Sequence record: OK272485.1
DNA length: 50,290 bases
Reading direction: 5' to 3' (one strand)
Origin: Escherichia phage JLBYU07
The stretch's first letter is position 1, and the number at the start of each line of letters is the position of its first letter. Below, piece by piece: positions 32,143 to 45,978 of this stretch. Under the pieces are notes generated by a model, which searched no databases, was not told where the DNA came from, and saw nothing but the letters and a program-made list of their open reading frames with translations. The position numbers and the translations under genes are program-made.

Positions 32143-32575
32143 TTATAAGATCAGGGAATTTCACGGTGATATAAGCAGGTGGATTGATTCAGTAAGCAGC
32201 GGCCTTGTTGATTGCGTTGAAATGTTCGCGACAAACGTCCACGAGGATCTTGTAAAGCGTTCGCCAGTTGATACGGGCCGATATAAAGCTAACTGGCAGG
32301 TAACAGCAAACAAGCCGCCGCTATATGCTCTCAATCAATACGATCGCGATGGTAGTAAAACCATTGCAGAAGGCAAGCGAGCAATATATGCAATCATGCG
32401 GGGCGGTGGCGCGGTGCGGTCAATCTATTTTTCAAACATGCTTATTTACGCCAATGCGCTTGAATACGGGCATTCAAAACAAGCGCCGTCCGGCGTGCTG
32501 GGAATCGTGGCGGTAAAGCTGCGATCCTATATGACTAAGGCAATAAAGGATTCGAGGGCAAAAAATGCACTATGA
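32132..32575 (+). CDS. HK97 gp10-like neck/tail component
   Basis: 147 aa from ATG 32132 (AAGGAGG RBS); conserved NMLIYANALEYGHS motif. Confidence 0.55.
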   Translation: MADNYKIREFHGDISRWIDSVSSGLVDCVEMFATNVHEDLVKRSPVDTGRYKANWQVTANKPPLYALNQYDRDGSKTIAEGKRAIYAIMRGGGAVRSIYFSNMLIYANALEYGHSKQAPSGVLGIVAVKLRSYMTKAIKDSRAKNAL

Positions 32576-32966
32576 TTTAATGTTAGCGGCAAGAAAGGCG
32601 CTGGCGGCGGAATATGAATCACGATTCAAGATCGCCTATGAAAACGTTGATTTTGTTCCGCCTGGTGATGGTTCGACGTGGTTAAAATTTGACTACATGG
32701 AAGCCGACACAGATCGCATATCTCTTGATAGAAAATGCGTTTCTTATATCGGATTGGTTCAGGTTGGAATTGTTATGCCTCCTGGCGGCGGCACTGATAA
32801 AGCGCGTTTACTGGCTAAAGAGATTGCGAGATTTTTCTATGATGGTAGAATGCTTGAAACTGGCTATATTAGCGAGGGGGCAAACGTCCACAAATTACTA
32901 AAAAGTGAAACAGGTTGGTTATTGCCGATCCGTTTCAGTGTTAGGCTTGATACAAAGGAGGAATAA
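32565..32966 (+). CDS. putative tail terminator / tail completion protein
   Basis: 133 aa; position immediately upstream of major tail protein. Confidence 0.4.
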   Translation: MHYDLMLAARKALAAEYESRFKIAYENVDFVPPGDGSTWLKFDYMEADTDRISLDRKCVSYIGLVQVGIVMPPGGGTDKARLLAKEIARFFYDGRMLETGYISEGANVHKLLKSETGWLLPIRFSVRLDTKEE

Positions 32967-32968
32967 TC

Positions 32969-33631
32969 ATGCACTTGCCTAATGGTTCTCAAATTTTCAT
33001 CGGCGTTAATATGGGTGAGCCAATTAGCGCGACTAAAATCAGCAATGCTGATAATCCTGTTTTTACAACCAAAAACACTCAAAGCATCAAAAAAGGCGCT
33101 TATGTTCTTATTGAAACATCTTCTTGGGGCAAACTTGTTAGTCGAGTGCTTCGAGTTAAGGAAGTATCAGATAATGTAAGTGTTACTCTTGAGGGTGTTA
33201 GCACTAAAGATACAAACGTATTTCCAGAAGGACGGAGCACAGCAACTTTCCGAGAAGTGAAATCTTGGGTAGAGGTTCCTTGCGTACAGGATCTTGCGCA
33301 GGACGGCGGCGAGCAACAGTATTACACTTATCAGTGTTTGGCTGATGACCAGGAGCAGCAGTTACCGACCTATAAGAGCGCCGTTTCTCTTACCTACACT
33401 TTCGCGCATGAATATGATAACCCTATTTATCCGATCTTGCGCGAGGCTGAGGAATCCGGCGACGTAACCGCTTTGCGTATGTACGTTCCGAAAGCTAAAG
33501 AGATGCGTTGCTGGGCTGGTGTATTGTCCTTTAATGACATTCCGCAAACCACTATGAACGAAATGGAAACTGTTTCCCTTTCCGTATTTCTGAAAGGTCG
33601 ATTTACGTTCTTATCTTCCGACATCAATTAA
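32969..33631 (+). CDS. major tail protein
   Basis: 220 aa; AGGAGG RBS; followed by strong terminator and then the G/G-T chaperone pair and tape measure. Confidence 0.6.
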   Translation: MHLPNGSQIFIGVNMGEPISATKISNADNPVFTTKNTQSIKKGAYVLIETSSWGKLVSRVLRVKEVSDNVSVTLEGVSTKDTNVFPEGRSTATFREVKSWVEVPCVQDLAQDGGEQQYYTYQCLADDQEQQLPTYKSAVSLTYTFAHEYDNPIYPILREAEESGDVTALRMYVPKAKEMRCWAGVLSFNDIPQTTMNEMETVSLSVFLKGRFTFLSSDIN

Positions 33632-33636
33632 AACAA

Positions 33637-33657
33637 GGGGCGTTGCGCCCCTTTTTT
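33637..33657 (+). terminator. rho-independent terminator
   Basis: hairpin GGGGCGTTGCGCCCC followed by T6. Confidence 0.75.
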
Positions 33658-33696
33658 CATTCCTGTAAAATCAATCTATCAAATAAATCAATCCCA

Positions 33697-33716
33697 CTTT
33701 TAACAAAAAGTGCTAT
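33697..33716 (-). promoter_or_regulatory. conserved intergenic box copy (antisense within late operon)
   Basis: CTTTTAACAAAAAGTGCTAT directly abuts AAGGAG RBS of G chaperone gene. Confidence 0.6.
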
Positions 33717-33730
33717 AAGGAGATCTTGAG

Positions 33731-34048
33731 ATGGCAAAGATGAAACTAACGCTAGGCCCGCTGCCTGATTTTAAGCTACCTGTTTCTTTCGTGCTTCCAA
33801 ATGGTGATGAGCAAGTTATTGTTTTCACAGTACGCCACAAGAAGGCAAGCGAAATTCACGAACGATACACGGCAGAAAAGCCGATGAGTGACGTAGAAAT
33901 GATCACCTTCCTTGCTTCCGGTTGGGATCTGGAAGATGAATTTAACGAGGAAAACGTTGCTAAATTGCTGGATTATTACCCTTCTGCGTCATTATCGCTG
34001 ACTGGTCATTATATGAAAGCACTTGCGGGGCAGCGGGTAAAAAACTAA
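33731..34048 (+). CDS. tail assembly chaperone (lambda G-like)
   Basis: 105 aa; AAGGAG RBS; ends just past slippery A AAA AAC heptamer. Confidence 0.65.
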   Translation: MAKMKLTLGPLPDFKLPVSFVLPNGDEQVIVFTVRHKKASEIHERYTAEKPMSDVEMITFLASGWDLEDEFNEENVAKLLDYYPSASLSLTGHYMKALAGQRVKN

Positions 34049-34365
34049 AGCGGGCGGTTTACCTGTTTTACCTCAAGCCGCCAACTGACGCACAATTAGA
34101 GGCCGTCGGCCTATCCCGTTCAGACTACGAAGGGGAGGAGCCGCCGGAGGTAATTTTTGATGAATCAATGTTTCAATCTTGGGATCTGTTTTGCGCTATG
34201 CAGACGCAATGGAGATCGACTAGCGGCAGTGTGTATGGGTTCGACTATAACGTTTTGCCTATGCTTTTTGACATTTACAAGATTGAGGATCGGGAGATGG
34301 CGCTAAATGATTTGCGCATCATGGAACAAAAGGCGCTAGAAATGATTCATTCAAACAAAACATAA
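33731..34365 (+). CDS. tail assembly chaperone G-T fusion via programmed -1 ribosomal frameshift
   Basis: slippery A AAA AAC at 34039-34045; -1 frame open from 34045 to stop 34363-34365 and matches track ORF 34168-34365. Confidence 0.55.
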
Positions 34366-34386
34366 GCGCCGCGAGGCGCTTTTTTA
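34364..34386 (+). terminator. rho-independent terminator
   Basis: hairpin AAGCGCCGCGAGGCGCTT followed by T5. Confidence 0.55.
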
Positions 34387-34404
34387 ATATCTGGAGGTTT
34401 TAAA

Positions 34405-37086
34405 ATGGCTGAAAAATACGCTGGCCTAACGCTAGGCGTTGACGTGTCGCAGGTCAACAATGCTGTTAAATCATTGCAGCAATTCAAGAAGGCAAACGAC
34501 GACGCAAAAAAAAGCGTTAATGAATTTGTTGATTCTGAGGTTGTGGCCCGACAGCAAGCAAAACAGCTTGCCGAAGAACTGGCGCGCCAGAAAGCAGAAT
34601 TTAAGAAAATCCAGGAGTCAATTGATCCCACCGCATCAAAGGTGGATAAGCTGAGAAAGGCAGCGACACAGCTTGATGCGCTATGGAAAAAGGGCGTTGT
34701 TCCTGATCAGACTTTTTTTGAGCTTGGGGCAATTCTTGAGACGCAGCAAAACAAGCTGATCGCAACAAAAAAAGCGATGACAGAGGAAGGCCGCGCGGCG
34801 CTTGAGGAATCAAAGAACAAGGCGCGCGCAGCGGAAGAGGCTAAAAAATTCGTCCAGGCTTTGCGTGAGCAGGAAGAAGCAGCAGGAAAAAGCAAGTCTG
34901 AATTGCTGGAAATGAAAGCGGCACAGCTTGGAGTTAGCCAGGAGGCAGCACCTTACATCGCAAGGCTGAAAGAGCAGGAAAAGCAGATCCAGAAACTTGG
35001 GATTTCTACAGGCCAATACAAACAAGCAATGCAGCAATTGCCAATGCAGATCACAGACGTGGTGACTTCACTTGCTTCTGGTATGCCCGTTTGGTTGGTC
35101 GCAGTCCAGCAGGGTGGACAGATCAAGGATTCTTTTGGTGGTGCATCCAATGCTTTAAAAGCGTTGCTATCTTTCCTGAATCCGGTAAACGTGGCGTTTG
35201 GTTTGCTTTCCGGCACGCTGGCAATTGCTGCATATAATGCCCACAAAGCACAGACAGAGCTTGAGGCAATTAAAAAAACCGTTCAGGAAACAACTGGCTT
35301 GACTGGTGATTTTGCCGAAAAGATTGCTACCGGAATACAGGAGCTTTCCGACAAGACAGGCGAAAGCGCCGAAGATCTTGCAAAGGCTTACATCACCACG
35401 AAAGACGGCGCGAGCGAGGCGATTAAAAAACTGGTTGACGTTGGCATGACTTATGATGACGCAAAAAAGAAAGTCAACGAGTACAAGGGCGCGTCTAGCT
35501 TTGTCAGCTTGAATAACGAAATTGCAAACCACAAAAACAAAGTCCTTGAGTTGGGCGATTCGTGGTATGAGGTTTTGAAAGCGAAGCGTGATTACGCTTC
35601 CCCGTCCGGCGGCCTGTTAGGTAAGGAGCTTGGCTATGTTAACCCTATGCTTAAGTTTGCACTTAACACTTATGAAGACATTGGAAAGGTCGTAAAAGAT
35701 GCGAATAAGGACATGGCGGAACGAGCGGAAAGGATCGACAAAGAAAACCTGGCCTTAAACAGAGTGCGCGCAGCACAGGAGGCTTTAAACAAAGCCATTG
35801 AGGATCAGAAAAATGTGGCGCGTTCGGCTGATGAAGAACTGAAAAAGCGCGCGGCTGAAAACGTGGAGTTGAGGCGCAAAGAGCTTGAGGAAATCAAGAA
35901 GCAGGAGCAGAAAAAGAAAGAGGCTAAAGGTGGAATAGTTCGCGGCCCGACTGAGCAGCTTGATAAAGAGTTGTACGTTTTAAAAGCGCAACTGGAGATG
36001 CTTAAAGAGCATCGCACTGTTAACGATGTTATTTCTCGCCAGCGTAAATCATTATGGAGTATCGAAAAGCAGATCGAGATCCTGGAGGATGCGAAGAGCA
36101 AGCGTAAATTGACCGGAGCGGAACAGGCGCTACTAAACGAGCAAAAAGCCGTTCTTGAAATGGCAAGGCAAAAAGCTGAGCTAGGGGATCAGATTGTTTT
36201 ACAGGAGCGCAAAAACAAGCTGGAGCAAGATAGCATTAAGTTTATCCGTGAAACTCAGGCGGCTATTGATGCGATTGGCCTTAAGCAACTTGGCTACACT
36301 GAAAAGCAGATCGAGCGTGAGCTAGAGTTACGCAAGCTGCGCACCGACTACGAGGCGCAAGGCAGAAGCGTTAGCGACGAAGTTTTTCAGCAAATGGAGA
36401 CGAAACTTAAGCTGTATTACCAGGCACAAGACGAGGCGCAAGGCAACTGGTTAGCCGGAGCAAAGAACGCATGGGAGCTATTCGCGGAAGATGCAAACAA
36501 TGCCTATGGCAATGTTCAGCAGATTGCAAGCGAGGCGTTAAACGGCCTTACAAACCAATTAGCGAATTTTATCGCTACTGGCAAGGCAAACTTTAAAGAC
36601 TTCTCGACGGCTATCATCAAAATGATTATTCAGATGATCACGAAAATGGTTGTCTTTAATGCGTTATCTGGCCTGATGGGTGGTCAAACCTGGACGATGG
36701 GGAGCTTGCTTAAGAATATTGGCGGATTTGCTGGCGGTGGATACACTGGCGATGGCGGGAAGTATGAGCCAGCCGGAATTGTTCATAAGGGTGAATTTGT
36801 CATGACGAAGGAGGCAACGCAGCGTATCGGAGTAGGCAACTTGTACCGCATGATGCGAGGCTATGCTAACGGCGGCGTTGTTGGTGGTTCCGGCTATACT
36901 GGCGGTGGCACTGTCACTGGTGGAGCACCTCAATTTAACATCGGTGGGATTGATGTTAGCATCAATAACGGCAATGATCCGAAGGGTATCGAAACTGGTG
37001 TTAAGATGATCTTTACTGATATGATTAGACGTTCCTGTATGCAGGGCGGGGAGGTTTACGAATTTGTTATGAGCAAGCGAGGTTGA
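34405..37086 (+). CDS. tape measure protein
   Basis: 893 aa; long coiled-coil Lys/Glu/Ala-rich body, Gly-rich C-terminal region, position after G/G-T. Confidence 0.85.
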   Translation: MAEKYAGLTLGVDVSQVNNAVKSLQQFKKANDDAKKSVNEFVDSEVVARQQAKQLAEELARQKAEFKKIQESIDPTASKVDKLRKAATQLDALWKKGVVPDQTFFELGAILETQQNKLIATKKAMTEEGRAALEESKNKARAAEEAKKFVQALREQEEAAGKSKSELLEMKAAQLGVSQEAAPYIARLKEQEKQIQKLGISTGQYKQAMQQLPMQITDVVTSLASGMPVWLVAVQQGGQIKDSFGGASNALKALLSFLNPVNVAFGLLSGTLAIAAYNAHKAQTELEAIKKTVQETTGLTGDFAEKIATGIQELSDKTGESAEDLAKAYITTKDGASEAIKKLVDVGMTYDDAKKKVNEYKGASSFVSLNNEIANHKNKVLELGDSWYEVLKAKRDYASPSGGLLGKELGYVNPMLKFALNTYEDIGKVVKDANKDMAERAERIDKENLALNRVRAAQEALNKAIEDQKNVARSADEELKKRAAENVELRRKELEEIKKQEQKKKEAKGGIVRGPTEQLDKELYVLKAQLEMLKEHRTVNDVISRQRKSLWSIEKQIEILEDAKSKRKLTGAEQALLNEQKAVLEMARQKAELGDQIVLQERKNKLEQDSIKFIRETQAAIDAIGLKQLGYTEKQIERELELRKLRTDYEAQGRSVSDEVFQQMETKLKLYYQAQDEAQGNWLAGAKNAWELFAEDANNAYGNVQQIASEALNGLTNQLANFIATGKANFKDFSTAIIKMIIQMITKMVVFNALSGLMGGQTWTMGSLLKNIGGFAGGGYTGDGGKYEPAGIVHKGEFVMTKEATQRIGVGNLYRMMRGYANGGVVGGSGYTGGGTVTGGAPQFNIGGIDVSINNGNDPKGIETGVKMIFTDMIRRSCMQGGEVYEFVMSKRG

Positions 37087-37088
37087 TA

Positions 37089-37439
37089 ATGAAGCTGGAT
37101 CAGTTTAAGTGGTGTACGCAGGTTCAGAACGGCGGCGGGGCAATGACGTCATCGAATAACGATCGAGAGATTGCATTCGGTAACGGATACACACAGGTAG
37201 CATCTGGAGGTTTTAACACAATCCGGCGAGAGTTTAGCATTGTTTACGCTGGGATTGATTACAGAGATGTTGTCAAGTTCCTGAATGAGCACAGGCTAAA
37301 GCCTTTCTTGTGGATCATGCCTGATGGAAGCCCTGGATTGTTCAGGGTGAAAAGCGGCAGCGTCGGCCTTACTCCACTGTCGCCAACCGTTCAGGAAGTA
37401 AAAGCTACTTTTACGGAGCAATTTACATCAATGCAATAA
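37089..37439 (+). CDS. minor tail protein (lambda M-like)
   Basis: 116 aa from ATG 37089; immediately after tape measure, first of M-L-K-I-J order. Confidence 0.65.
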   Translation: MKLDQFKWCTQVQNGGGAMTSSNNDREIAFGNGYTQVASGGFNTIRREFSIVYAGIDYRDVVKFLNEHRLKPFLWIMPDGSPGLFRVKSGSVGLTPLSPTVQEVKATFTEQFTSMQ

Positions 37440-38263: not shown

Positions 38264-38994
38264 TGATTAGTGCAAAAATTAAACTTGAAATAATGCAGCA
38301 CGTTAAAGAGGAATACCCTAAAGAGGCTTGCGGCGTCATAACTCAAAAGTCACGGGTACAGAAATATCACCGCATAACCAACGTGCATGACGATCCAGAA
38401 AATCATTTTGAAATGGACGCCGTAGAATACGCTGAATCGCTCGACAAAGGCGAATTAATCGCGGTGGTGCATTCCCATTGCGGGGATGGTGCTAGTACGA
38501 TACCGAGCGCGCACGACTCATGTATGTGCGATGAAATGGGTGTGTCGTGGATTATAGTTTCATGGCCAGAAGGTGATATGAGAATTGTCGAGCCGCAGGA
38601 GAGGCCGCTTATCGGTCGCCCGTGGTCGCTGGGGTCGTTCGATTGCTGGGGTCTTATCATGGCGTGGCATAAACAGCACGGAGTAGTATTGAATGACTTC
38701 CGAAAGCCTTACGAGTGGTGGAAGTCAGAATATGGTGAAAATCTTTACCAGGATAATTATTTGAAAGAGGGATTTGTTGAAACTAACGAGCCTCCAAAAC
38801 CTGGTGATATGGTGATTATGCAGCTATCATCGCCAGTCTGGAATCATGCGGGGATTTATTTGGGTAACAATCAGCTATTACATCATGCGTTTGGAAAGCT
38901 ATCTCGCATTGACTTGTATTCTGGATGGTATCAGGAGCACACTGTAAAAATTTGCCGACATAAGGATCTGAAATATGACATTGAAAGTAATTAA
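38263..38994 (+). CDS. tail assembly protein (lambda K-like; MPN/JAB plus NlpC/P60)
   Basis: 243 aa from ATG 38263; JAMM motif VVHSHCGDGASTIPSAHD; C-terminal Cys/His papain-like segment (DCWGL...H). Confidence 0.8.
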   Translation: MISAKIKLEIMQHVKEEYPKEACGVITQKSRVQKYHRITNVHDDPENHFEMDAVEYAESLDKGELIAVVHSHCGDGASTIPSAHDSCMCDEMGVSWIIVSWPEGDMRIVEPQERPLIGRPWSLGSFDCWGLIMAWHKQHGVVLNDFRKPYEWWKSEYGENLYQDNYLKEGFVETNEPPKPGDMVIMQLSSPVWNHAGIYLGNNQLLHHAFGKLSRIDLYSGWYQEHTVKICRHKDLKYDIESN

Positions 38995-39571
38995 GCTATC
39001 TGGTTCCCTGGGGCGTAGATTTGGCGTCTTTCACAAAATGGCGGTTGACTCATACCCCGAAGCAATACGCGCGCTATCTTCCCAGGTTGAAGGATTCAAA
39101 GACTACATGCAAAGCGAAGTAGGATCGCGAATGAAGTATGCTGTATTCGTTGACGGTAAAAACATTGGTCAGCATGATGAAAAATCATGGAAGTGCGCGC
39201 GAGAGGTTAGAATAGTTCCTGTTCCAACTGGTTCTAAGTCCGGCGGCTTGTTCAATGTTGTTGTTGGTGCTGTAATTATGGCTACTGCGTTCATTACTAA
39301 CGGTGCAAGCCTGGCGGCTATGGGCGCTTTTGCATCTTCCGCATTTATGATGGGTGGTGCTATCGCGCTTGGCGGTGTCATGCAAATGATCTCGCCGCAG
39401 CAGGGTGGAATGAAACTGCAAAGCCAATCAGCAGAAAACAAGCCTTCTTACGCTTTCGGCGGCGCAGTAAATACCACGGCGGCAGGTTATCCGGTTCCTT
39501 TACCATATGGATATAGGACAGTAGGCGGCGCGATCTGGTCGGCTGGCAGCTACGCAGAAGATAAAGCATAA
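38975..39571 (+). CDS. tail assembly protein (lambda I-like)
   Basis: 198 aa; overlaps end of K; Gly/Ala-rich hydrophobic C-terminal half. Confidence 0.7.
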   Translation: MTLKVIKLSGSLGRRFGVFHKMAVDSYPEAIRALSSQVEGFKDYMQSEVGSRMKYAVFVDGKNIGQHDEKSWKCAREVRIVPVPTGSKSGGLFNVVVGAVIMATAFITNGASLAAMGAFASSAFMMGGAIALGGVMQMISPQQGGMKLQSQSAENKPSYAFGGAVNTTAAGYPVPLPYGYRTVGGAIWSAGSYAEDKA

Positions 39572-39578
39572 AAAAAAT

Positions 39579-39601
39579 ACCCGCCTTGCGCGGGTTTTTT
39601 T
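39579..39601 (+). terminator. rho-independent terminator
   Basis: hairpin ACCCGCCTTGCGCGGGT followed by T7. Confidence 0.7.
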
Positions 39602-39650
39602 GTGCCTTTATAATGTTCAAACCAAGAAACAGCACAAAAGGTTAAAAGTC

Positions 39651-42600
39651 ATGGCTAAATATATGATAAGCGGCAGTAAGGGCGGAAGCAAAAAGCCATA
39701 CGTGCCAAAAGAGATGGAAGATAACCTGATCTCGATAAACAAGATTAAAGTTTTGCTGGCTGTATCTGATGGCGAGTGCGATCCAGATTTCACGTTGCGT
39801 GATCTTTATCTTGATGATGTTCCTGTTATTGCCAGCGATGGCACTGTTAACTATGAGGGTGTAACGGCTGAATATAGGCCAGGCACACAGACGCAAGATT
39901 ACATCCAAGGGTTTACTGACACATCAAGCGAGGTGACAGTTTCGCGAGATATTACAACAGACAATCCCTATATTATCTCTGTGACAAACAAAAATCTTTC
40001 TGCAATCAGAATCAAGATTCTGATGCCAGTTGGCATGAAGCAGGAGGATAACGGCGATCTTGTTGGCGTAAGGGTTCAATATGCCGTAGATATGGCTGTT
40101 GATGGCGGTTCTTATAACGAGGTTATGAGAGATGTAATTGACGGCAAGACGAGATCAGGATATGACCGCAGCAGAAGGATTGATCTTCCTAAGTTTGAGG
40201 AGCGCGTTTTAATCAGAGTCAAGCGACTGACTCCAGACAGCACACCTTCAAAGGTGACTGATAAAATCAAACTGCAAAGTTACGCTGAGGTTGTGGATGC
40301 AAAATTCCGTTATCCTCTGACTGGACTTGTATTCGTAGAATTTGACAGCGAATTGTTTCCTACGCAAATCCCTAACATTTCTATAAAAAAGAAATGGAAG
40401 ATTATTAATGTTCCAAGCAACTATGATCCAATATCAAGAAAATATCACGGGTCATGGGATGGGACTTTTAAAAAAGCGTGGTCAAATAATCCTGCTTGGG
40501 TTCTTTATGATCTGGTAACGAATCAGCGTTATGGGCTTGACCAGCGAGAGTTAGGAATACAGATCGACAAGTGGAGCTTATACGAGGCTGGCGTTTACTG
40601 TGATCAGAAAGTTCCAGACGGTAAGGGCGGTACAGAGCCTCGCTACCTATGCGATGTAGTTATCCAGAATCAGGTTGAGGCTTATCAGCTAATCCGTGAC
40701 ATTTGCTCAATCTTTCGCGGAATGAGCTTTTGGAATGGTGAGAGTTTATCAATCGTGATTGATAAGCCGCGCGATCCATCATACGTGTTTACTAATGAAA
40801 ACGTCATCAACGGTGATTTTCAGTACACAACCGCAAGCGAAAAAAGCATGTACACGCAGTGTAACGTGACGTTTGACGACGAACAAAACATGTATCAGCA
40901 GGACGTAGAGGGGGTTTTTGATACTGAGGCTGCATTACGATTTGGATACAATCCAACAAGCATTACAGCGATCGGGTGCACACGCAGGAGCGAAGCGAAT
41001 CGTCGCGGTAGGTGGGTTTTGAAAACAAACCTTAGAAGCACTACTGTAAACTTTGCTACCGGACTAGAGGGGATGATTCCATCAATAGGTGATGTGATTG
41101 CTATCGCTGATAATTTTCAGAGCAGCAACCTAACGTTAAACCTATCGGGCCGAGTGATGGAAGTTTCAGGATTGCAGGTTTTCGTTCCGTTTAAGGTTGA
41201 TGCTCGTCCTGGTGATTTTATTATCATCAACAAGCCGGACGGCAAGCCAGTTAAGCGCACGATCTCAAAGGTTAGCGCAGACGGAAAAACCATTGAGTTA
41301 AATATTGGATTTGGTTTTGATGTTAAGCCTGACACTGTTTTTGCGATTGACCGTACTGACCTTGCGTTGCAGCAATACGTTGTGACAACTATCAGCAAGG
41401 GTGATGACGAAAACGAGTTTACCTATTCAATCACGGCTGTAGAGTACGATCCGAACAAATACGACGAGATTGATTATGGCGTAAACATTGATGACAGACC
41501 AACTTCAATTGTTCAGCCTGACGTGATGGTAGCGCCGGAGAACGTGCAGATCTCATCTTATTCTCGCGTCGTGCAGGGCGTTAGCGTTGAGACTATGGTT
41601 GTTTCATGGGATAAGGTTCCTTACGCATCTCTTTATGAAATGCAGTGGCGAAAAGGTGATGGCAACTGGCTGAATACGCCGCAGACAGCTAACAAAGAGA
41701 TAGAGGTAGAAGGAATTTATTCAGGGAACTATCAAGTAAGGGTTAGATCTGTTTCTGCAAGCGGTAACACCTCCCCGTGGTCAAAGATTGCAACCGCCAC
41801 CCTGACAGGTAAAGTTGGCGAGCCAGGAGCGCCGATTAATCTTACAGCTTCTGATAATGAAGTTTTTGGCATTCGTGTCAAATGGGGTATGCCGGAAGGA
41901 TCAGGCGATACGGCTTACATTGAGCTTCACCAATCTCCAGACGGAACGGTTGAAAACTCAAGCCTGCTTACGCTGATTCCATATCCTCAATATGAGTATT
42001 GGCATAGCACGTTACCAGCGGGTCAAGTTGTATGGTATAGAATCCGTAGCGTTGACAGGATCGGCAACGTTTCCGGCTGGACTGACTTTGTTCGTGGCAT
42101 GGCGTCAGATGATGTTGAATCTGTTTTAGGCGACATTCTGGACAAGATTTTTGATACCGAAGCGGGTCAAGAAATCAAAGAGAACGCCATAGACAGTGCC
42201 AACAAAATCAAAGACCAAGCGCAATCAATCATCCAGAACGCATTAGCAAACGATGCTGATGTGAAGTGGACGCGAGTACAAAACGGAAAGCGTAAGGCTG
42301 AATATGGTCATGCTCTTGAGCTTATCGCCAACGAAACTGAGGCGCGCGTAACTCAAATCGAAGAGTTAAGGGCGTCAATTGATGAAGATATAGTTTCAAG
42401 TATCAAAACCGTTCAGGAAGCGATTGCCAACGAATCAGAGACGCGAGCTACTCAAGTTCAGCAGCTTGATTCTAAATTTACGAAGGAAATAGACGGCGTA
42501 AAACGAGATACGGCTGCAAGTATTGGTGAGGTAAGGCAAACCATTACCAATGAATCAGAAGCGCGCGCTCAGGCCGTTCAGCAGCTTGACGCTAAGTTCA

Positions 42601-43229
42601 CGAAAGAGATAAACGACCTTGACGGAGTTATCAAAACAGAAGTCGAGGCTAACATCTCAGAAGTGAAACAGGCGATCGCCAATGAGACAGAGGCAAGGGT
42701 TCAGGCTGACCAGGCTTTAACAGCTAAATTCGGAGACGTTGAATCAGCACTAGCAGAAAAACTTGATTCGTGGGCTAACGTTGATTCGGTTGGCGCTAAG
42801 TACGCTATGAAATTGGGCCTTACTTACAATGGGCAGAAGTACAGCGCAGGAATGGTAATGCAGCTATCGCAATCGTCGCAGGGGTTGATCTCACAAATCC
42901 TTTTCGATGCTAACCGATTTGCAATTATGACCAGTTCGTCAGGTGGCGTTTACACATTGCCGTTTGTAGTAGAAAATAACCAGGTTTTTATCAACAGTTT
43001 GTTGGTGAAAAACGGGTCCATTACTAACGCAATGATTGGCAACGTTATTCAGTCAAATAACTTTGTTCAGAATCAGCAAGGATGGAGGCTTGATAAAAAT
43101 GGTAACTTTGAGAACTACGGAACTAGAGCGGGAGAAGGAGCTACAAAATTCACTAACGAAGGCTTAAAGGTGAAAGATGCAAATGGACGATTGAGAGTTG
43201 AGATAGGGAGAATAACCGGAAGTTGGTAA
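39651..43229 (+). CDS. tail tip host-specificity protein (lambda J-like central fibre)
   Basis: 1192 aa from ATG 39651; size and position after I; four ~35-aa tandem repeats IANE[ST]E[AT]R...Q[QE]L near C-terminus. Confidence 0.85.
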   Translation: MAKYMISGSKGGSKKPYVPKEMEDNLISINKIKVLLAVSDGECDPDFTLRDLYLDDVPVIASDGTVNYEGVTAEYRPGTQTQDYIQGFTDTSSEVTVSRDITTDNPYIISVTNKNLSAIRIKILMPVGMKQEDNGDLVGVRVQYAVDMAVDGGSYNEVMRDVIDGKTRSGYDRSRRIDLPKFEERVLIRVKRLTPDSTPSKVTDKIKLQSYAEVVDAKFRYPLTGLVFVEFDSELFPTQIPNISIKKKWKIINVPSNYDPISRKYHGSWDGTFKKAWSNNPAWVLYDLVTNQRYGLDQRELGIQIDKWSLYEAGVYCDQKVPDGKGGTEPRYLCDVVIQNQVEAYQLIRDICSIFRGMSFWNGESLSIVIDKPRDPSYVFTNENVINGDFQYTTASEKSMYTQCNVTFDDEQNMYQQDVEGVFDTEAALRFGYNPTSITAIGCTRRSEANRRGRWVLKTNLRSTTVNFATGLEGMIPSIGDVIAIADNFQSSNLTLNLSGRVMEVSGLQVFVPFKVDARPGDFIIINKPDGKPVKRTISKVSADGKTIELNIGFGFDVKPDTVFAIDRTDLALQQYVVTTISKGDDENEFTYSITAVEYDPNKYDEIDYGVNIDDRPTSIVQPDVMVAPENVQISSYSRVVQGVSVETMVVSWDKVPYASLYEMQWRKGDGNWLNTPQTANKEIEVEGIYSGNYQVRVRSVSASGNTSPWSKIATATLTGKVGEPGAPINLTASDNEVFGIRVKWGMPEGSGDTAYIELHQSPDGTVENSSLLTLIPYPQYEYWHSTLPAGQVVWYRIRSVDRIGNVSGWTDFVRGMASDDVESVLGDILDKIFDTEAGQEIKENAIDSANKIKDQAQSIIQNALANDADVKWTRVQNGKRKAEYGHALELIANETEARVTQIEELRASIDEDIVSSIKTVQEAIANESETRATQVQQLDSKFTKEIDGVKRDTAASIGEVRQTITNESEARAQAVQQLDAKFTKEINDLDGVIKTEVEANISEVKQAIANETEARVQADQALTAKFGDVESALAEKLDSWANVDSVGAKYAMKLGLTYNGQKYSAGMVMQLSQSSQGLISQILFDANRFAIMTSSSGGVYTLPFVVENNQVFINSLLVKNGSITNAMIGNVIQSNNFVQNQQGWRLDKNGNFENYGTRAGEGATKFTNEGLKVKDANGRLRVEIGRITGSW
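42324..42780 (+). repeat. four tandem ~105-bp coding repeats in J C-terminal region
   Basis: repeated GCCAA[CT]GA[AG]... units encoding IANETEARVTQ / IANESETRATQ / ITNESEARAQA / IANETEARVQA. Confidence 0.7.
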
Positions 43230-44922: not shown

Positions 44923-45978
44923 ATGAGTGATTTTAACGCCTACACTAGCGAAGAAATGAGCAACGAGCTTTATCATGATCCTAACGCATGGACGGCTGAA
45001 TATGTCAGCGGTTCCAGCCTGGCGGAGATTTACAGCACTTGCCCGGCGTACTGGAAGTACAAGCCTCGCCAGGAAACCAAAGCACTTGTTTTCGGTACGC
45101 AGTCGCATACCAATTTTGAAAGCAAGGAGTTATTCGAAAAAACATATCGCCGCGCACCGTCGCAGGATGATTTTAAAGATCTGATCACAAGTCAAACGGC
45201 GTTGGCCTCAAAGCTGAAATCTTTTGGCCTGAAAGGTACAACGGGTAAGCAATACCCCGAATTGCTGGAAATGCTGTACAAGTGCGGTGAGGATCTCAAT
45301 GTATGGTGGCTTATCGAAATGATGGCAGAATGCCAGGCCGCAGCGGACGGCGTGCAGTTAATCGACGCGAAAGATTATGACGCCTGTGTAGCGATGCGGC
45401 GCGTACTTGAGGCAATACCTGAGCATAATGCTTGCATGAATAGCCCAACCGCGCAGCGTGAAATGTCAATATTCGGGATCATCAATGGCGTAAAAGTTAA
45501 AGTGCGCCTTGATCACGTTGACGTAAACAAGGATGTAAAGGCCACAATCATTAACGGTTACGACGAAAAAGGCCGACCGATTTATGAAGAAGTCATCTAT
45601 CCAGAAGCTGTGATTATCACTGACTATAAAACAACGGTTAGCGCAAATCCGGTTGACTTCCAGCGCCTGGCTTACAATCACGGCTATTATCTCAAAATGG
45701 CTTTGCAGCATGATTTATTTAAAAAGGCGTATCCAGACGAGGAAAGGCCAGTAATTGTGAGATTGCTTGCTCAAGAGAAGAAAGAGCCTTACTTGCCGCT
45801 CGCATTCCGCATGAACATTGAGCAATTGAAGATCGGTCGCATCCAGTACATGAGCGTGATCAACAAGTTCAACGTTTGCCAACAGTTAGATGAATGGCCT
45901 TCGTATGCAAACGGGCAACCAGAAATTGATCTTGATACTCCTGATTGGGTACGCGCTCAATTCAGGCAGTATCTATGA
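44923..45978 (+). CDS. PD-(D/E)XK recombination exonuclease (RecE/exonuclease VIII-like)
   Basis: 351 aa; GAGGAG RBS; nuclease motifs VRLDHVD and ITDYKTT; upstream of Erf and SSB. Confidence 0.6.
   Translation: MSDFNAYTSEEMSNELYHDPNAWTAEYVSGSSLAEIYSTCPAYWKYKPRQETKALVFGTQSHTNFESKELFEKTYRRAPSQDDFKDLITSQTALASKLKSFGLKGTTGKQYPELLEMLYKCGEDLNVWWLIEMMAECQAAADGVQLIDAKDYDACVAMRRVLEAIPEHNACMNSPTAQREMSIFGIINGVKVKVRLDHVDVNKDVKATIINGYDEKGRPIYEEVIYPEAVIITDYKTTVSANPVDFQRLAYNHGYYLKMALQHDLFKKAYPDEERPVIVRLLAQEKKEPYLPLAFRMNIEQLKIGRIQYMSVINKFNVCQQLDEWPSYANGQPEIDLDTPDWVRAQFRQYL

What the first reader, a model, noticed from the sequence alone, without database searches (positions are those of the whole stretch)
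34030..34050. Programmed -1 frameshift site for the G/G-T tail chaperone pair
Seen in sequence: slippery heptamer A AAA AAC (34039-34045) sits two codons before the G stop (34046-34048). The -1 frame is open from 34045 to 34365 and coincides with track ORF 34168-34365. Established knowledge: lambda-like siphoviruses make G and G-T by -1 frameshifting just before the tape-measure gene.
Basis: partly seen in the sequence, partly recalled or inferred. Interest (0 to 1): 0.35.

Follow-up and report, generated by a model that had tools for sequence, protein, structure and literature searches.

The report
Tail chaperone G/G-T frameshift site
This is the usual "slippery" spot where a small fraction of ribosomes shift back one base at the end of a phage tail-assembly chaperone gene to make a longer fusion protein; it is real and strongly conserved, but already known in T1-like phages.

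Summary
A_AAA_AAC (34039-34045) forms the last two sense codons of a 105-aa tail assembly chaperone gene (33731-34048, Pfam Phage_TAC_4). It directly abuts the TAA stop. The -1 frame is open from 33964 to 34365 and encodes a DUF1799/TfmB-like domain. The pair lies between the tail tube gene and the tape measure gene of a Warwickvirus (Drexlerviridae, T1-like coliphage).

Comparative evidence is strong:
- In 47 distinct related junctions, the three wobble positions of the heptamer never vary, while the 12 preceding codons show 1-2 bits of wobble entropy.
- The 40 codons before the first ATG of the -1 frame evolve as coding sequence.
- No conserved start codon or ribosome-binding site exists for the downstream ORF.
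- One PHROG profile spans both halves as a single protein.

GenBank records of phages Tls and Sushi already annotate the joined product at the orthologous site, and genome notes for Stevie and Skenny mention it. The five Warwickvirus records I inspected list separate ORFs or omit the second one.

The frameshift itself is inferred, not demonstrated. A downstream hairpin (34053-34082) is a lineage-restricted candidate stimulator. Verdict: ordinary, already known, low interest.

The parts
32969..33631 (+). Major tail (tube) protein gene, the upstream neighbour
   Evidence: Pfam PF08813 Phage_tail_3, E 6.7e-61; phrog_584 major tail protein
33635..33653 (+). Intrinsic-terminator-like hairpin plus T run between the tube gene and the chaperone gene
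   Evidence: 8-bp stem with 6 GC pairs, followed by TTTTCATT. The T1 record annotates a terminator at the equivalent place.
33717..33722 (+). Shine-Dalgarno-like AAGGAG, 8 nt before the ATG of the chaperone gene
   Evidence: Read directly from the sequence
33731..34048 (+). G-like tail assembly (tape measure) chaperone gene, 105 aa, zero-frame product
   Evidence: Pfam PF08748 Phage_TAC_4, E 5.1e-30, 104.7 bits against a cut-off of 21.1. Annotated 'tape measure chaperone' in FritzSarasin, tunzivis and JLBYU19.
34039..34045 (+). Slippery heptamer A_AAA_AAC in X_XXY_YYZ register of the chaperone frame
   Evidence: Invariant in 47 distinct related junctions, with zero wobble entropy at its three wobble positions.
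34046..34048 (+). TAA stop of the zero frame, directly abutting the heptamer; possible 'shifty stop' stimulator
   Evidence: TAA in 45 and TGA in 2 of 47 junctions. The overlapping first -1 codon is CTA (45) or CTG (2), the only CTN Leu codons that keep a stop in the G frame.
34045..34365 (+). T part: -1 frame extension of 106 codons plus stop. Proposed G-T product = join(33731..34045, 34045..34365), 211 aa
   Evidence: The -1 frame is open from 33964 to 34365. Pfam PF08809 DUF1799 matches fusion residues 128-206. phrog_680 matches T residues 9-105, and phrog_17368 matches both halves. A coding signature is present before the first ATG.
34053..34082 (+). Candidate stimulatory hairpin: 8-bp stem GGCGGUUU / AAGCCGCC, 14-nt loop, 7-nt spacer after the heptamer
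   Evidence: MFE -13.2 kcal/mol, z = -1.76, 11 of 200 shuffles fold as well. 74% of cells are paired over 48 relatives, but RNAalifold finds no consensus and the stem is absent in several lineages.
34168..34365 (+). The 65-aa ORF that most GenBank relatives annotate as a separate 'hypothetical protein'; here read as the 3' part of the T segment
   Evidence: It starts at the first ATG/GTG/TTG in the -1 frame. The nearest SD-like GGAGG (34146-34150) is 17 nt upstream. The Met is not conserved.
34364..34381 (+). Intrinsic-terminator-like hairpin plus T run between the T stop and the tape measure gene
   Evidence: 7-bp stem with 5 GC pairs, followed by TTTTAATA. T1 and Sushi annotate terminators at the equivalent place.
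34405..37086 (+). Tape measure protein gene (893 aa), the downstream neighbour and presumed client of the chaperones
   Evidence: Pfam PF06791 TMP_2 (E 6.2e-36) and PF09718 Tape_meas_lam_C (E 1.9e-22); phrog_24

Best explanation
The site is a programmed -1 ribosomal frameshift signal of the phage G/G-T type.

Most ribosomes translating the chaperone gene (33731-34048) stop at TAA 34046 and release a 105-aa chaperone. A minority slip back one base on A_AAA_AAC: tRNA-Lys re-pairs from AAA to AAA and tRNA-Asn from AAC to AAA. These ribosomes then read CTA AAG CGG... in the -1 frame as far as 34365. The result is a 211-aa fusion, ...GQRVKN-LKRAVYL..., whose C-terminal half is a DUF1799/TfmB-like domain.

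By analogy with lambda, the shared N-terminal part coats the tape measure protein and the T part recruits the tube protein. The low slip rate fixes a large excess of the short form over the long form. Neither protein ends up in the virion.

Shown here: the sequence geometry, the family assignments, nucleotide-level selection on the heptamer and on the adjacent stop, coding selection on the start-less part of the -1 frame, and existing annotation of the join in relatives.

Inferred: that slippage actually occurs, its efficiency, the roles of the two products, and any contribution of the adjacent stop or of the 34053-34082 hairpin.
For: - Geometry and frames.
- Gene context tube / TAC / T / TMP / gpM-like.
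- phrog_17368 spans both halves, and phrog_680 matches T residues 9-105, well before Met42.
- tblastn with the fusion finds both halves as two pieces in 1085 of 1128 matching phage records, down to about 27% identity.
- In 92 of the 94 loci dissected, the second half is in the -1 frame.
- Heptamer wobble positions are invariant against 1-2 bits in flanking codons.
- The third-position-dominated substitution pattern before the first ATG (0.72/0.65/1.43) matches the annotated ORF (0.83/0.53/1.28).
- There is no conserved start or SD.
- Joined CDS are annotated in Tls and Sushi.
- Literature: T1-like phages Stevie and Skenny are described as carrying the conserved frameshift (PMC4319613; PMC6763657). 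AAAAAAC adjacent to the chaperone stop is described in Acinetobacter phage Loki (PMC5313236). A_AAA_AAC is a proven -1 site in an E. coli IS cluster (PMC4066793).
Against: - I found no direct detection of the fusion protein for any Drexlerviridae phage; the Tls annotation itself says 'non-experimental evidence'.
- A_AAA_AAC is a much weaker shifter in E. coli than A_AAA_AAG (PMC5009743).
- The downstream hairpin is only marginally more stable than shuffles and is not conserved family-wide.
- I saw no convincing upstream SD-like stimulator in the sequence.
- Some relatives (the Webervirus group with A_AAA_GTT, and others with A_AAG_GTC or A_AAG_GAT) lack a full heptamer. The exact slip mechanism may therefore not be uniform.
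Confidence: 0.9

Rival explanations
1. The shift is ribosomal, but it is a P-site (or P/E-site) slip that happens while the adjacent stop codon sits in the A site ('shifty stop'). Slow termination, rather than tandem A/P-site slippage or the hairpin, would then set the G:G-T ratio.
For: - The stop directly abuts the heptamer in all 47 heptamer-bearing junctions.
- The overlapping -1 Leu codon is only ever CTA or CTG, the two choices that keep TAA or TGA. This holds although other wobble sites vary freely and CTA is, from my own knowledge, a rare E. coli codon.
- The heptamer is a weak one in E. coli.
- No conserved RNA stimulator was found.
Against: - Adjacency could simply be inherited, or reflect selection on the chaperone's C-terminus.
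- Relatives with A_AAA_GTT_TAA or A_AAG_GTC_TAA have a non-slippery codon between the Lys codon and the stop, so the stop cannot act in the same way there.
- In lambda the stop lies 15 nt after the heptamer.
- Both mechanisms give the same protein, so sequence data cannot separate them.
Confidence: 0.2
2. The longer product arises from transcriptional slippage. RNA polymerase would add one A in the A6 run, giving mRNAs with A7 that encode ...VKK-LKR... in a single frame.
For: The site is a homopolymeric A6 run. One extra A would put the T part in frame.
Against: - From general knowledge, efficient slippage by E. coli RNA polymerase needs longer runs, about 8-9 or more. The window has 43 A runs of 6 or more, so A6 is not special.
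- Relatives keep the same architecture with G_GGA_AAC, A_AAG_GTC or A_AAG_GAT, which have no long homopolymer and fit only ribosomal re-pairing.
- The conserved element is the heptamer in register, including the final C, not just a run of A.
Confidence: 0.04
3. There is no recoding. The downstream ORF 34168-34365 would be an independent 65-aa gene starting at its own ATG, as most GenBank relatives annotate it.
For: An ATG exists at 34168. FritzSarasin, MikeNSara, JLBYU19, JLBYU26, pSf-1 and T1 list a separate short CDS there.
Against: - The nearest SD-like GGAGG is 17 nt upstream.
- The Met is not conserved, and the first possible start ranges from T residue 5 to 68 among 80 relatives, 69 of them without an SD core.
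- The 40 codons before the ATG evolve as coding sequence in that frame.
- DUF1799 and phrog_680 matches begin upstream of the ATG.
Confidence: 0.04
4. The split is an artefact: a homopolymer sequencing error in one continuous gene.
For: Two IMG/VR relatives (L025, L079) carry A5 instead of A6, which shows that this run is miscalled or varies.
Against: The same two-frame arrangement with A6 is seen in 92 of 94 loci from independent isolates and metagenomes, and as two pieces in 1085 phage records. The A5 variants do not fuse the frames either; they put T in the +1 frame behind a stop.
Confidence: 0.01

Closest known systems
Phage Tls tfmA/tfmS (AY308796) and Klebsiella phage Sushi tape measure chaperones (KT001920), the annotated frameshifted pairs in Drexlerviridae
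   Same: These are orthologous genes in the same position. Tls has the identical A_AAA_AAC_TAA junction and its T part is also 105-106 codons long. Both records give the long product as a two-piece joined CDS. The fusion protein is about 63% (Tls) and about 49% (Sushi) identical to the window's.
   Different: Sushi and the other Webervirus loci have A_AAA_GTT_TAA, so only the A_AAA tetramer is slippery. None of the five Warwickvirus records I inspected annotates the join.
Bacteriophage lambda G / G-T (Levin, Hendrix & Casjens 1993; Xu, Hendrix & Duda 2004, 2013, 2014)
   Same: Two overlapping ORFs lie between the tube gene (V) and the tape measure gene (H). The second ORF is in the -1 frame, and a heptamer of X_XXY_YYZ type lies near the end of the first ORF. 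In lambda the ratio of short to long product is about 30:1 (PMC5009743). The downstream genes are lambda-like (TMP_2 and Tape_meas_lam_C domains, gpM-like minor tail protein).
   Different: - The lambda heptamer is G_GGA_AAG, 15 nt before the G stop. G is 140 aa and G-T is 279 aa. Here the heptamer is A_AAA_AAC abutting the stop, with products of 105 and 211 aa.
- There is no detectable sequence similarity: hhalign probability is 0.09% for G and 0.8% for T.
- The Pfam families differ: here they are Phage_TAC_4 and DUF1799.
Acinetobacter phage vB_AbaS_Loki gp12/gp13
   Same: [quoted passage not shown]
   Different: It has a different host and lineage. I did not compare the proteins. It is likewise only predicted.
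IS1 insA/insB' and other E. coli A_AAA_AAC -1 sites
   Same: The heptamer is the same. It is used by E. coli ribosomes at low efficiency, and no stimulator has been established: the A_AAA_AAC_1 IS cluster is called a proven case in PMC4066793. The identification of that cluster as IS1 comes from my own knowledge.
   Different: It belongs to a transposase, not a virion assembly chaperone. The context and the products are unrelated.

Membership tests
G/G-T type frameshifted tail assembly chaperone pair (Xu, Hendrix & Duda 2004) | Two ORFs located between the major tail (tube) gene and the tape measure gene | tested here: met
   Tube gene 32969-33631 (PF08813), chaperone 33731-34048, -1 ORF ending at 34365, TMP 34405-37086 (PF06791, PF09718):
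G/G-T type frameshifted tail assembly chaperone pair (Xu, Hendrix & Duda 2004) | The second ORF overlaps the end of the first and lies in its -1 frame | tested here: met
   The -1 frame is open from 33964 to 34365, an 82-nt overlap
G/G-T type frameshifted tail assembly chaperone pair (Xu, Hendrix & Duda 2004) | A canonical slippery sequence X_XXY_YYZ in register within the overlap | tested here: met
   A_AAA_AAC at 34039-34045 is the only such heptamer in the overlap. It is conserved at nucleotide level.
G/G-T type frameshifted tail assembly chaperone pair (Xu, Hendrix & Duda 2004) | The downstream ORF has no translation start of its own, and its conserved coding sequence reaches back to the shift site | tested here: met
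   There is no ATG/GTG/TTG in the -1 frame before 34168. A coding signature is seen for T residues 2-41. Candidate starts are scattered and mostly lack an SD in 80 relatives.
G/G-T type frameshifted tail assembly chaperone pair (Xu, Hendrix & Duda 2004) | A trans-frame fusion protein is made in vivo at a low, fixed ratio, is needed for tail assembly and is absent from virions | not testable with these tools
   This needs mass spectrometry, western blotting, reporter assays and genetics. The Tls annotation is explicitly non-experimental.
Pfam PF08748 Phage_TAC_4 (T1 gp40-like tail assembly chaperone) | Score above the curated gathering threshold over the full domain | tested here: met
   104.7 bits against a cut-off of 21.1; residues 1-105 match profile positions 1-124 of 124
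Pfam PF08809 DUF1799 (Tls TfmB-like) | Score above the curated gathering threshold | tested here: met
   45.8 bits against a cut-off of 26; fusion residues 128-206 match profile positions 3-80 of 80
Lambda gpG and gpT sequence families | Detectable sequence or profile similarity to lambda G or to the lambda T part | tested here: not met
   hhalign of the 13-sequence G alignment against lambda G gives probability 0.09%. The T alignment against lambda T gives probability 0.8%. The relation to lambda is positional and functional, not sequence membership.
Tail assembly chaperone 'spiral' fold (Pell et al. 2013) | The three-dimensional fold matches solved TAC structures | tested here: inconclusive
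   The single-sequence AlphaFold2 model has mean pLDDT 43.6 and pTM 0.25, so it is unusable and no fold search was run. There is no PDB relative by sequence.
Stimulated bacterial -1 signals (dnaX / IS911 / IS3 type: heptamer plus upstream SD and/or downstream structure) | A conserved downstream stem-loop or pseudoknot 5-9 nt after the heptamer | tested here: inconclusive
   An 8-bp hairpin lies 7 nt downstream (-13.2 kcal/mol, z -1.76). Similar hairpins at the same spacing occur in T1 (z -5.6), AV129 and R656. They are absent in DTL, Sd1, NBD2, L052 and L080.

The most novel reading that the evidence does not exclude
The G:G-T ratio in T1-like phages may be set by termination-coupled slippage rather than by a classical heptamer-plus-RNA-structure signal. 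The weak A_AAA_AAC heptamer is locked against the stop codon: in 47 of 47 junctions the overlapping Leu codon is restricted to CTA or CTG, the choices that preserve the stop. The amount of fusion protein would then depend on release-factor kinetics in the host. The two intrinsic terminators that bracket the chaperone genes would add a second layer of stoichiometry control relative to tube and tape measure proteins.
Probability: 0.2. Interest if true: 0.35.

Novelty: already known. Interest (0 to 1): 0.12.

Why it matters
The main value is for annotation. Most deposited Warwickvirus and other Drexlerviridae genomes list the T part as a truncated 'hypothetical protein' or omit it. The correct feature is join(33731..34045, 34045..34365), encoding a 211-aa tape measure chaperone.

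Biologically it is one more confirmation that the G/G-T recoding strategy is nearly universal in long-tailed phages. The clean nucleotide-level signature makes this family a convenient natural data set. That signature comprises zero wobble variation in the heptamer, a stop codon pinned to it, and lineages that have reduced the heptamer to A_AAA or A_AAG. The data set could be used to ask how weak heptamers and adjacent stops tune low-level frameshifting in enterobacteria.

Tried and rejected
1. Downstream RNA stimulator. An 8-bp hairpin at 34053-34082 folds, but it is only marginally better than shuffles (z -0.53 for the 85-nt stretch). The pair counts (74% paired, compensatory changes confined to single lineages) and the empty RNAalifold consensus do not support a family-wide structure. 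I keep it only as a lineage-restricted candidate.

2. Rfam scan of 33600-34450 at a permissive E-value. Nothing matched at the frameshift site. The only hits were sub-threshold sRNA matches on the terminator hairpin.

3. A second site with the same geometry, T_TTA_AAG at 45172. Rejected: its '0 frame' is a spurious 69-aa ORF inside the 351-aa gene 44923-45978.

4. The search for homologous proteins with the fusion protein returned only three T-part ORFs of 123-136 aa. This was not enough to build an alignment.

5. Single-sequence AlphaFold2 of the 105-aa chaperone gave pLDDT 43.6, which is unusable. I did not run a fold search.

6. PDB sequence search and NCBIfam scan of the fusion gave no hits.

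7. Profile comparison with lambda G and T showed no similarity.

8. A literature search for 'TfmS' returned only unrelated chemistry and medical papers.

9. Other slip sites in the overlap. G_GGG (GCG GGG, about 34024-34027) and C_CCT (TAC CCT, about 33979-33982) are Z_ZZN tetramers in register. Their nucleotides vary freely among relatives, so they are not the selected element.

Full report
WHAT THE WINDOW IS. The 901 bases around the finding are 98-99% identical to Escherichia phages FritzSarasin, MikeNSara, tonijn, tiwna and others. A 24-kb stretch is about 97% identical to JLBYU10, tunus and XY3. These are members of the genus Warwickvirus (Drexlerviridae, Tempevirinae), which are T1-like virulent coliphages.

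The local + strand gene order is:
- tail terminator, 32565-32966 (PF13554);
- tube protein, 32969-33631 (PF08813);
- a 105-aa ORF, 33731-34048 (PF08748 Phage_TAC_4, E 5e-30);
- the -1 frame segment ending at 34365 (PF08809 DUF1799);
- tape measure protein, 34405-37086 (PF06791 and PF09718);
- a lambda gpM-like minor tail protein, 37083-37439 (PF05939).

THE OBSERVATION. The sequence reads CAG CGG GTA AAA AAC TAA in the frame of 33731-34048. A_AAA_AAC therefore occupies 34039-34045 in X_XXY_YYZ register, and the TAA stop (34046-34048) follows with no gap. The -1 frame is open from 33964 to 34365 and is the frame of the listed ORF 34168-34365.

The predicted trans-frame product is join(33731..34045, 34045..34365). 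It is 211 aa long, with the junction ...GQRVKN/LKRAVYLFYLKPP...

IS IT MORE THAN CHANCE?
- The window holds 430 XXXYYYZ strings over both strands and all frames. Only two combine at least 60 open codons upstream with a -1 frame that continues at least 60 codons beyond the 0-frame stop.
- The second case, T_TTA_AAG at 45172, is a spurious 69-aa ORF inside the real 351-aa gene 44923-45978.
- Conservation is stronger evidence. I dissected 94 homologous loci, 14 from GenBank records and 80 from IMG/VR. They gave 67 distinct 90-nt junctions. Fifty of these have AAAAAAC followed directly by a stop.
- In the 47 distinct 93-nt junctions carrying the heptamer, codon -3 is GTA, GCA or GAA. The residue is V, A or E, yet the third base is always A. 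Codon -2 is always AAA, never AAG. Codon -1 is always AAC, never AAT.
- The 12 codons before these have wobble entropies of 0.99-1.98 bits. Arg -4, for example, uses CGC, CGA, CGG and CGT. This shows selection on the nucleotides, which is what a slippery heptamer predicts.
- The stop is also pinned. The first -1 codon is CTA (45) or CTG (2), the only CTN Leu codons that leave TAA or TGA in the chaperone frame.

IS THE -1 FRAME REALLY TRANSLATED FROM THE SHIFT SITE? Five lines of evidence say it is.
- There is no ATG, GTG or TTG in the -1 frame before 34168.
- Across 80 distinct relatives, the 40 codons between the shift site and that ATG have mean entropies of 0.72, 0.65 and 1.43 at codon positions 1, 2 and 3. 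The annotated ORF has 0.83, 0.53 and 1.28. This is the signature of a translated sequence.
- The Pfam DUF1799 match starts at fusion residue 128, 19 residues before the Met. phrog_680 matches T residues 9-105. phrog_17368, a 213-position profile, matches the chaperone over positions 1-107 and the T part over 109-211, so it was built from fused proteins.
- The Met is not conserved. The first possible start codon in the T frame lies anywhere from residue 5 to 68, and 69 of 80 relatives have no SD-like core upstream of it. In the window, the nearest GGAGG (34146-34150) is 17 nt from ATG 34168.
- tblastn with the fusion finds both halves as two joined pieces in 1085 of 1128 matching phage records. 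The hits span Drexlerviridae, Dhillonvirus, and Pseudomonas and Ralstonia phages, down to about 27% identity.

WHAT IS ALREADY KNOWN.
- The GenBank record of phage Tls annotates tfmA (short) and tfmS (a two-piece join) at the orthologous place, with the identical A_AAA_AAC_TAA junction. Klebsiella phage Sushi does likewise.
- Genome announcements for the T1-like phages Stevie and Skenny state that the tape measure chaperones carry the conserved translational frameshift (PMC4319613; PMC6763657).
- The Loki paper describes AAAAAAC immediately adjacent to the chaperone stop in an Acinetobacter siphovirus. It lists the experimentally confirmed cases as lambda, P2, L5, TM4, phiC31, HK022 and HK97 (PMC5313236). 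None of these is a T1-like phage.
- The five Warwickvirus records I opened either annotate 34168-34365 as a separate small protein or leave it out.

MECHANISM. The best-supported reading is low-level -1 ribosomal slippage on A_AAA_AAC.
- In E. coli this heptamer is clearly shift-prone but much weaker than A_AAA_AAG (PMC5009743). In general, AAN codons are good shifters and heterogeneous ZZN codons are weaker than homogeneous ones (PMC4066793).
- An A_AAA_AAC insertion-sequence cluster is a proven case with no established stimulator.
- A weak site fits the biology. Lambda needs about 30 G per G-T.
- By analogy with lambda, the shared N-terminal domain would bind the tape measure protein and the T domain would bind the tube protein. 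This step is inferred, not tested.

Possible stimulators:
- (a) The abutting stop codon may act as a 'shifty stop'. It is under selection, but that could equally reflect selection on the chaperone's C-terminus.
- (b) An 8-bp hairpin at 34053-34082 starts 7 nt after the heptamer. Its free energy is -13.2 kcal/mol and z is -1.76.
  - Hairpins at the same spacing occur in T1 (z -5.6), the Dhillonvirus AV129 (z -2.3) and Pseudomonas phage R656 (z -2.05), with different sequences.
  - They are absent in DTL, Sd1, NBD2, L052 and L080.
  - Over 48 relatives, 74% of cells pair. The compensatory changes are confined to single lineages, and RNAalifold returns no consensus.
  - The stem also overlaps the conserved residues R-A-V-Y and K-P-P, so conservation alone says little.
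- I saw no convincing upstream SD-like element, and Rfam has nothing at the site.

RIVALS.
- Transcriptional slippage on A6 is unlikely to be the main route. The window has 43 A runs of 6 or more. Relatives also keep the architecture with G_GGA_AAC, A_AAG_GTC and A_AAG_GAT, which only ribosomal re-pairing can use.
- Independent initiation at 34168 is contradicted by the coding signature upstream and by the lack of a conserved start.
- A sequencing artefact is excluded by the number of independent genomes.

COMPARISON WITH LAMBDA. Lambda has G_GGA_AAG 15 nt before the G stop, a 140-aa G and a 279-aa G-T. The window has A_AAA_AAC abutting the stop, with products of 105 and 211 aa. Profile comparisons find no sequence similarity to lambda G (probability 0.09%) or T (0.8%). 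The window's pair therefore works like lambda G/G-T and sits in the same place, but it belongs to different sequence families (Phage_TAC_4 and DUF1799). I could not test the fold: the single-sequence AlphaFold2 model had pLDDT 43.6, and there is no PDB relative by sequence.

VERDICT. The site is the orthologue of an already annotated and published predicted frameshift in T1-like phages, so it counts as already known and scores low on interest. What remains open is experimental proof in this family, and whether the stop codon pinned to a weak heptamer helps set the frameshift rate.

Noticed in passing
window 33635-33653 and 34364-34381 (+ strand): Two intrinsic-terminator-like hairpins with T runs bracket the chaperone pair. 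One follows the tube gene and the other lies between the T stop and the tape measure gene. The T1 and Sushi records annotate terminators at the same places. They may attenuate transcription to set the tube: chaperone: tape measure stoichiometry.
   Followed up: partly
L025:1509-1513 and L079:1506-1510 (IMG/VR UViG_2974632794_000001 and UViG_2974785742_000001): Two relatives have GTAAAAACTAA, with A5 instead of A6. This puts the T part in the +1 frame behind a stop and removes the heptamer. It is most likely a homopolymer miscall, but real length variation of the run is not excluded.
   Followed up: partly
L008, L081-L099 (Webervirus group); L052, L060, L061, L063; L018: Some lineages lack a full heptamer at the homologous position: A_AAA_GTT/GTC/GCC_TAA, A_AAG_GTC_TAA and A_AAG_GAT_TAA. 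Only a Z_ZZN tetramer on the Lys codon is left, yet the stop is still exactly one codon later and the T frame is intact. Pseudomonas phage R656 has G_GGA_AAC_TGA.
   Followed up: partly
window 45172-45178 (+ strand): T_TTA_AAG is the only other heptamer in the window with frameshift-like geometry. Its 0 frame is a spurious 69-aa ORF (44975-45184) lying inside the real 351-aa gene 44923-45978, so it is not a recoding site.
   Followed up: yes
window 34146-34160 (+ strand): A perfect GGAGG lies 9 nt upstream of an ATG at 34160 that is in the chaperone's own frame (49-aa ORF 34157-34306). The GGAGG is part of the Pro-Glu-Val codons of the T frame, so this is probably coincidental. I did not check its conservation.
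   Followed up: no
window 33625-33708 (- strand): A sub-threshold Rfam match to the Salmonella sRNA STnc50 (34.7 bits against a gathering score of 55, E 5e-4) lies in the tube-chaperone intergenic region and overlaps the terminator hairpin. The hairpin is the likely cause.
   Followed up: no
window 15373, 34506, 39570, 43228 (A8) and 50250 (A9): These are long A runs. The one at 34506 lies inside the tape measure gene, and those at 39570 and 43228 sit at the ends of ORFs 38975-39571 and 39600-43229. I did not examine them.
   Followed up: no
P0001-P0003: The large protein collection returned only three relatives of the fusion. All are T-frame ORFs of 123-136 aa carrying PF08809. This shows that gene callers start this start-less ORF at arbitrary upstream codons in the overlap.
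   Followed up: no
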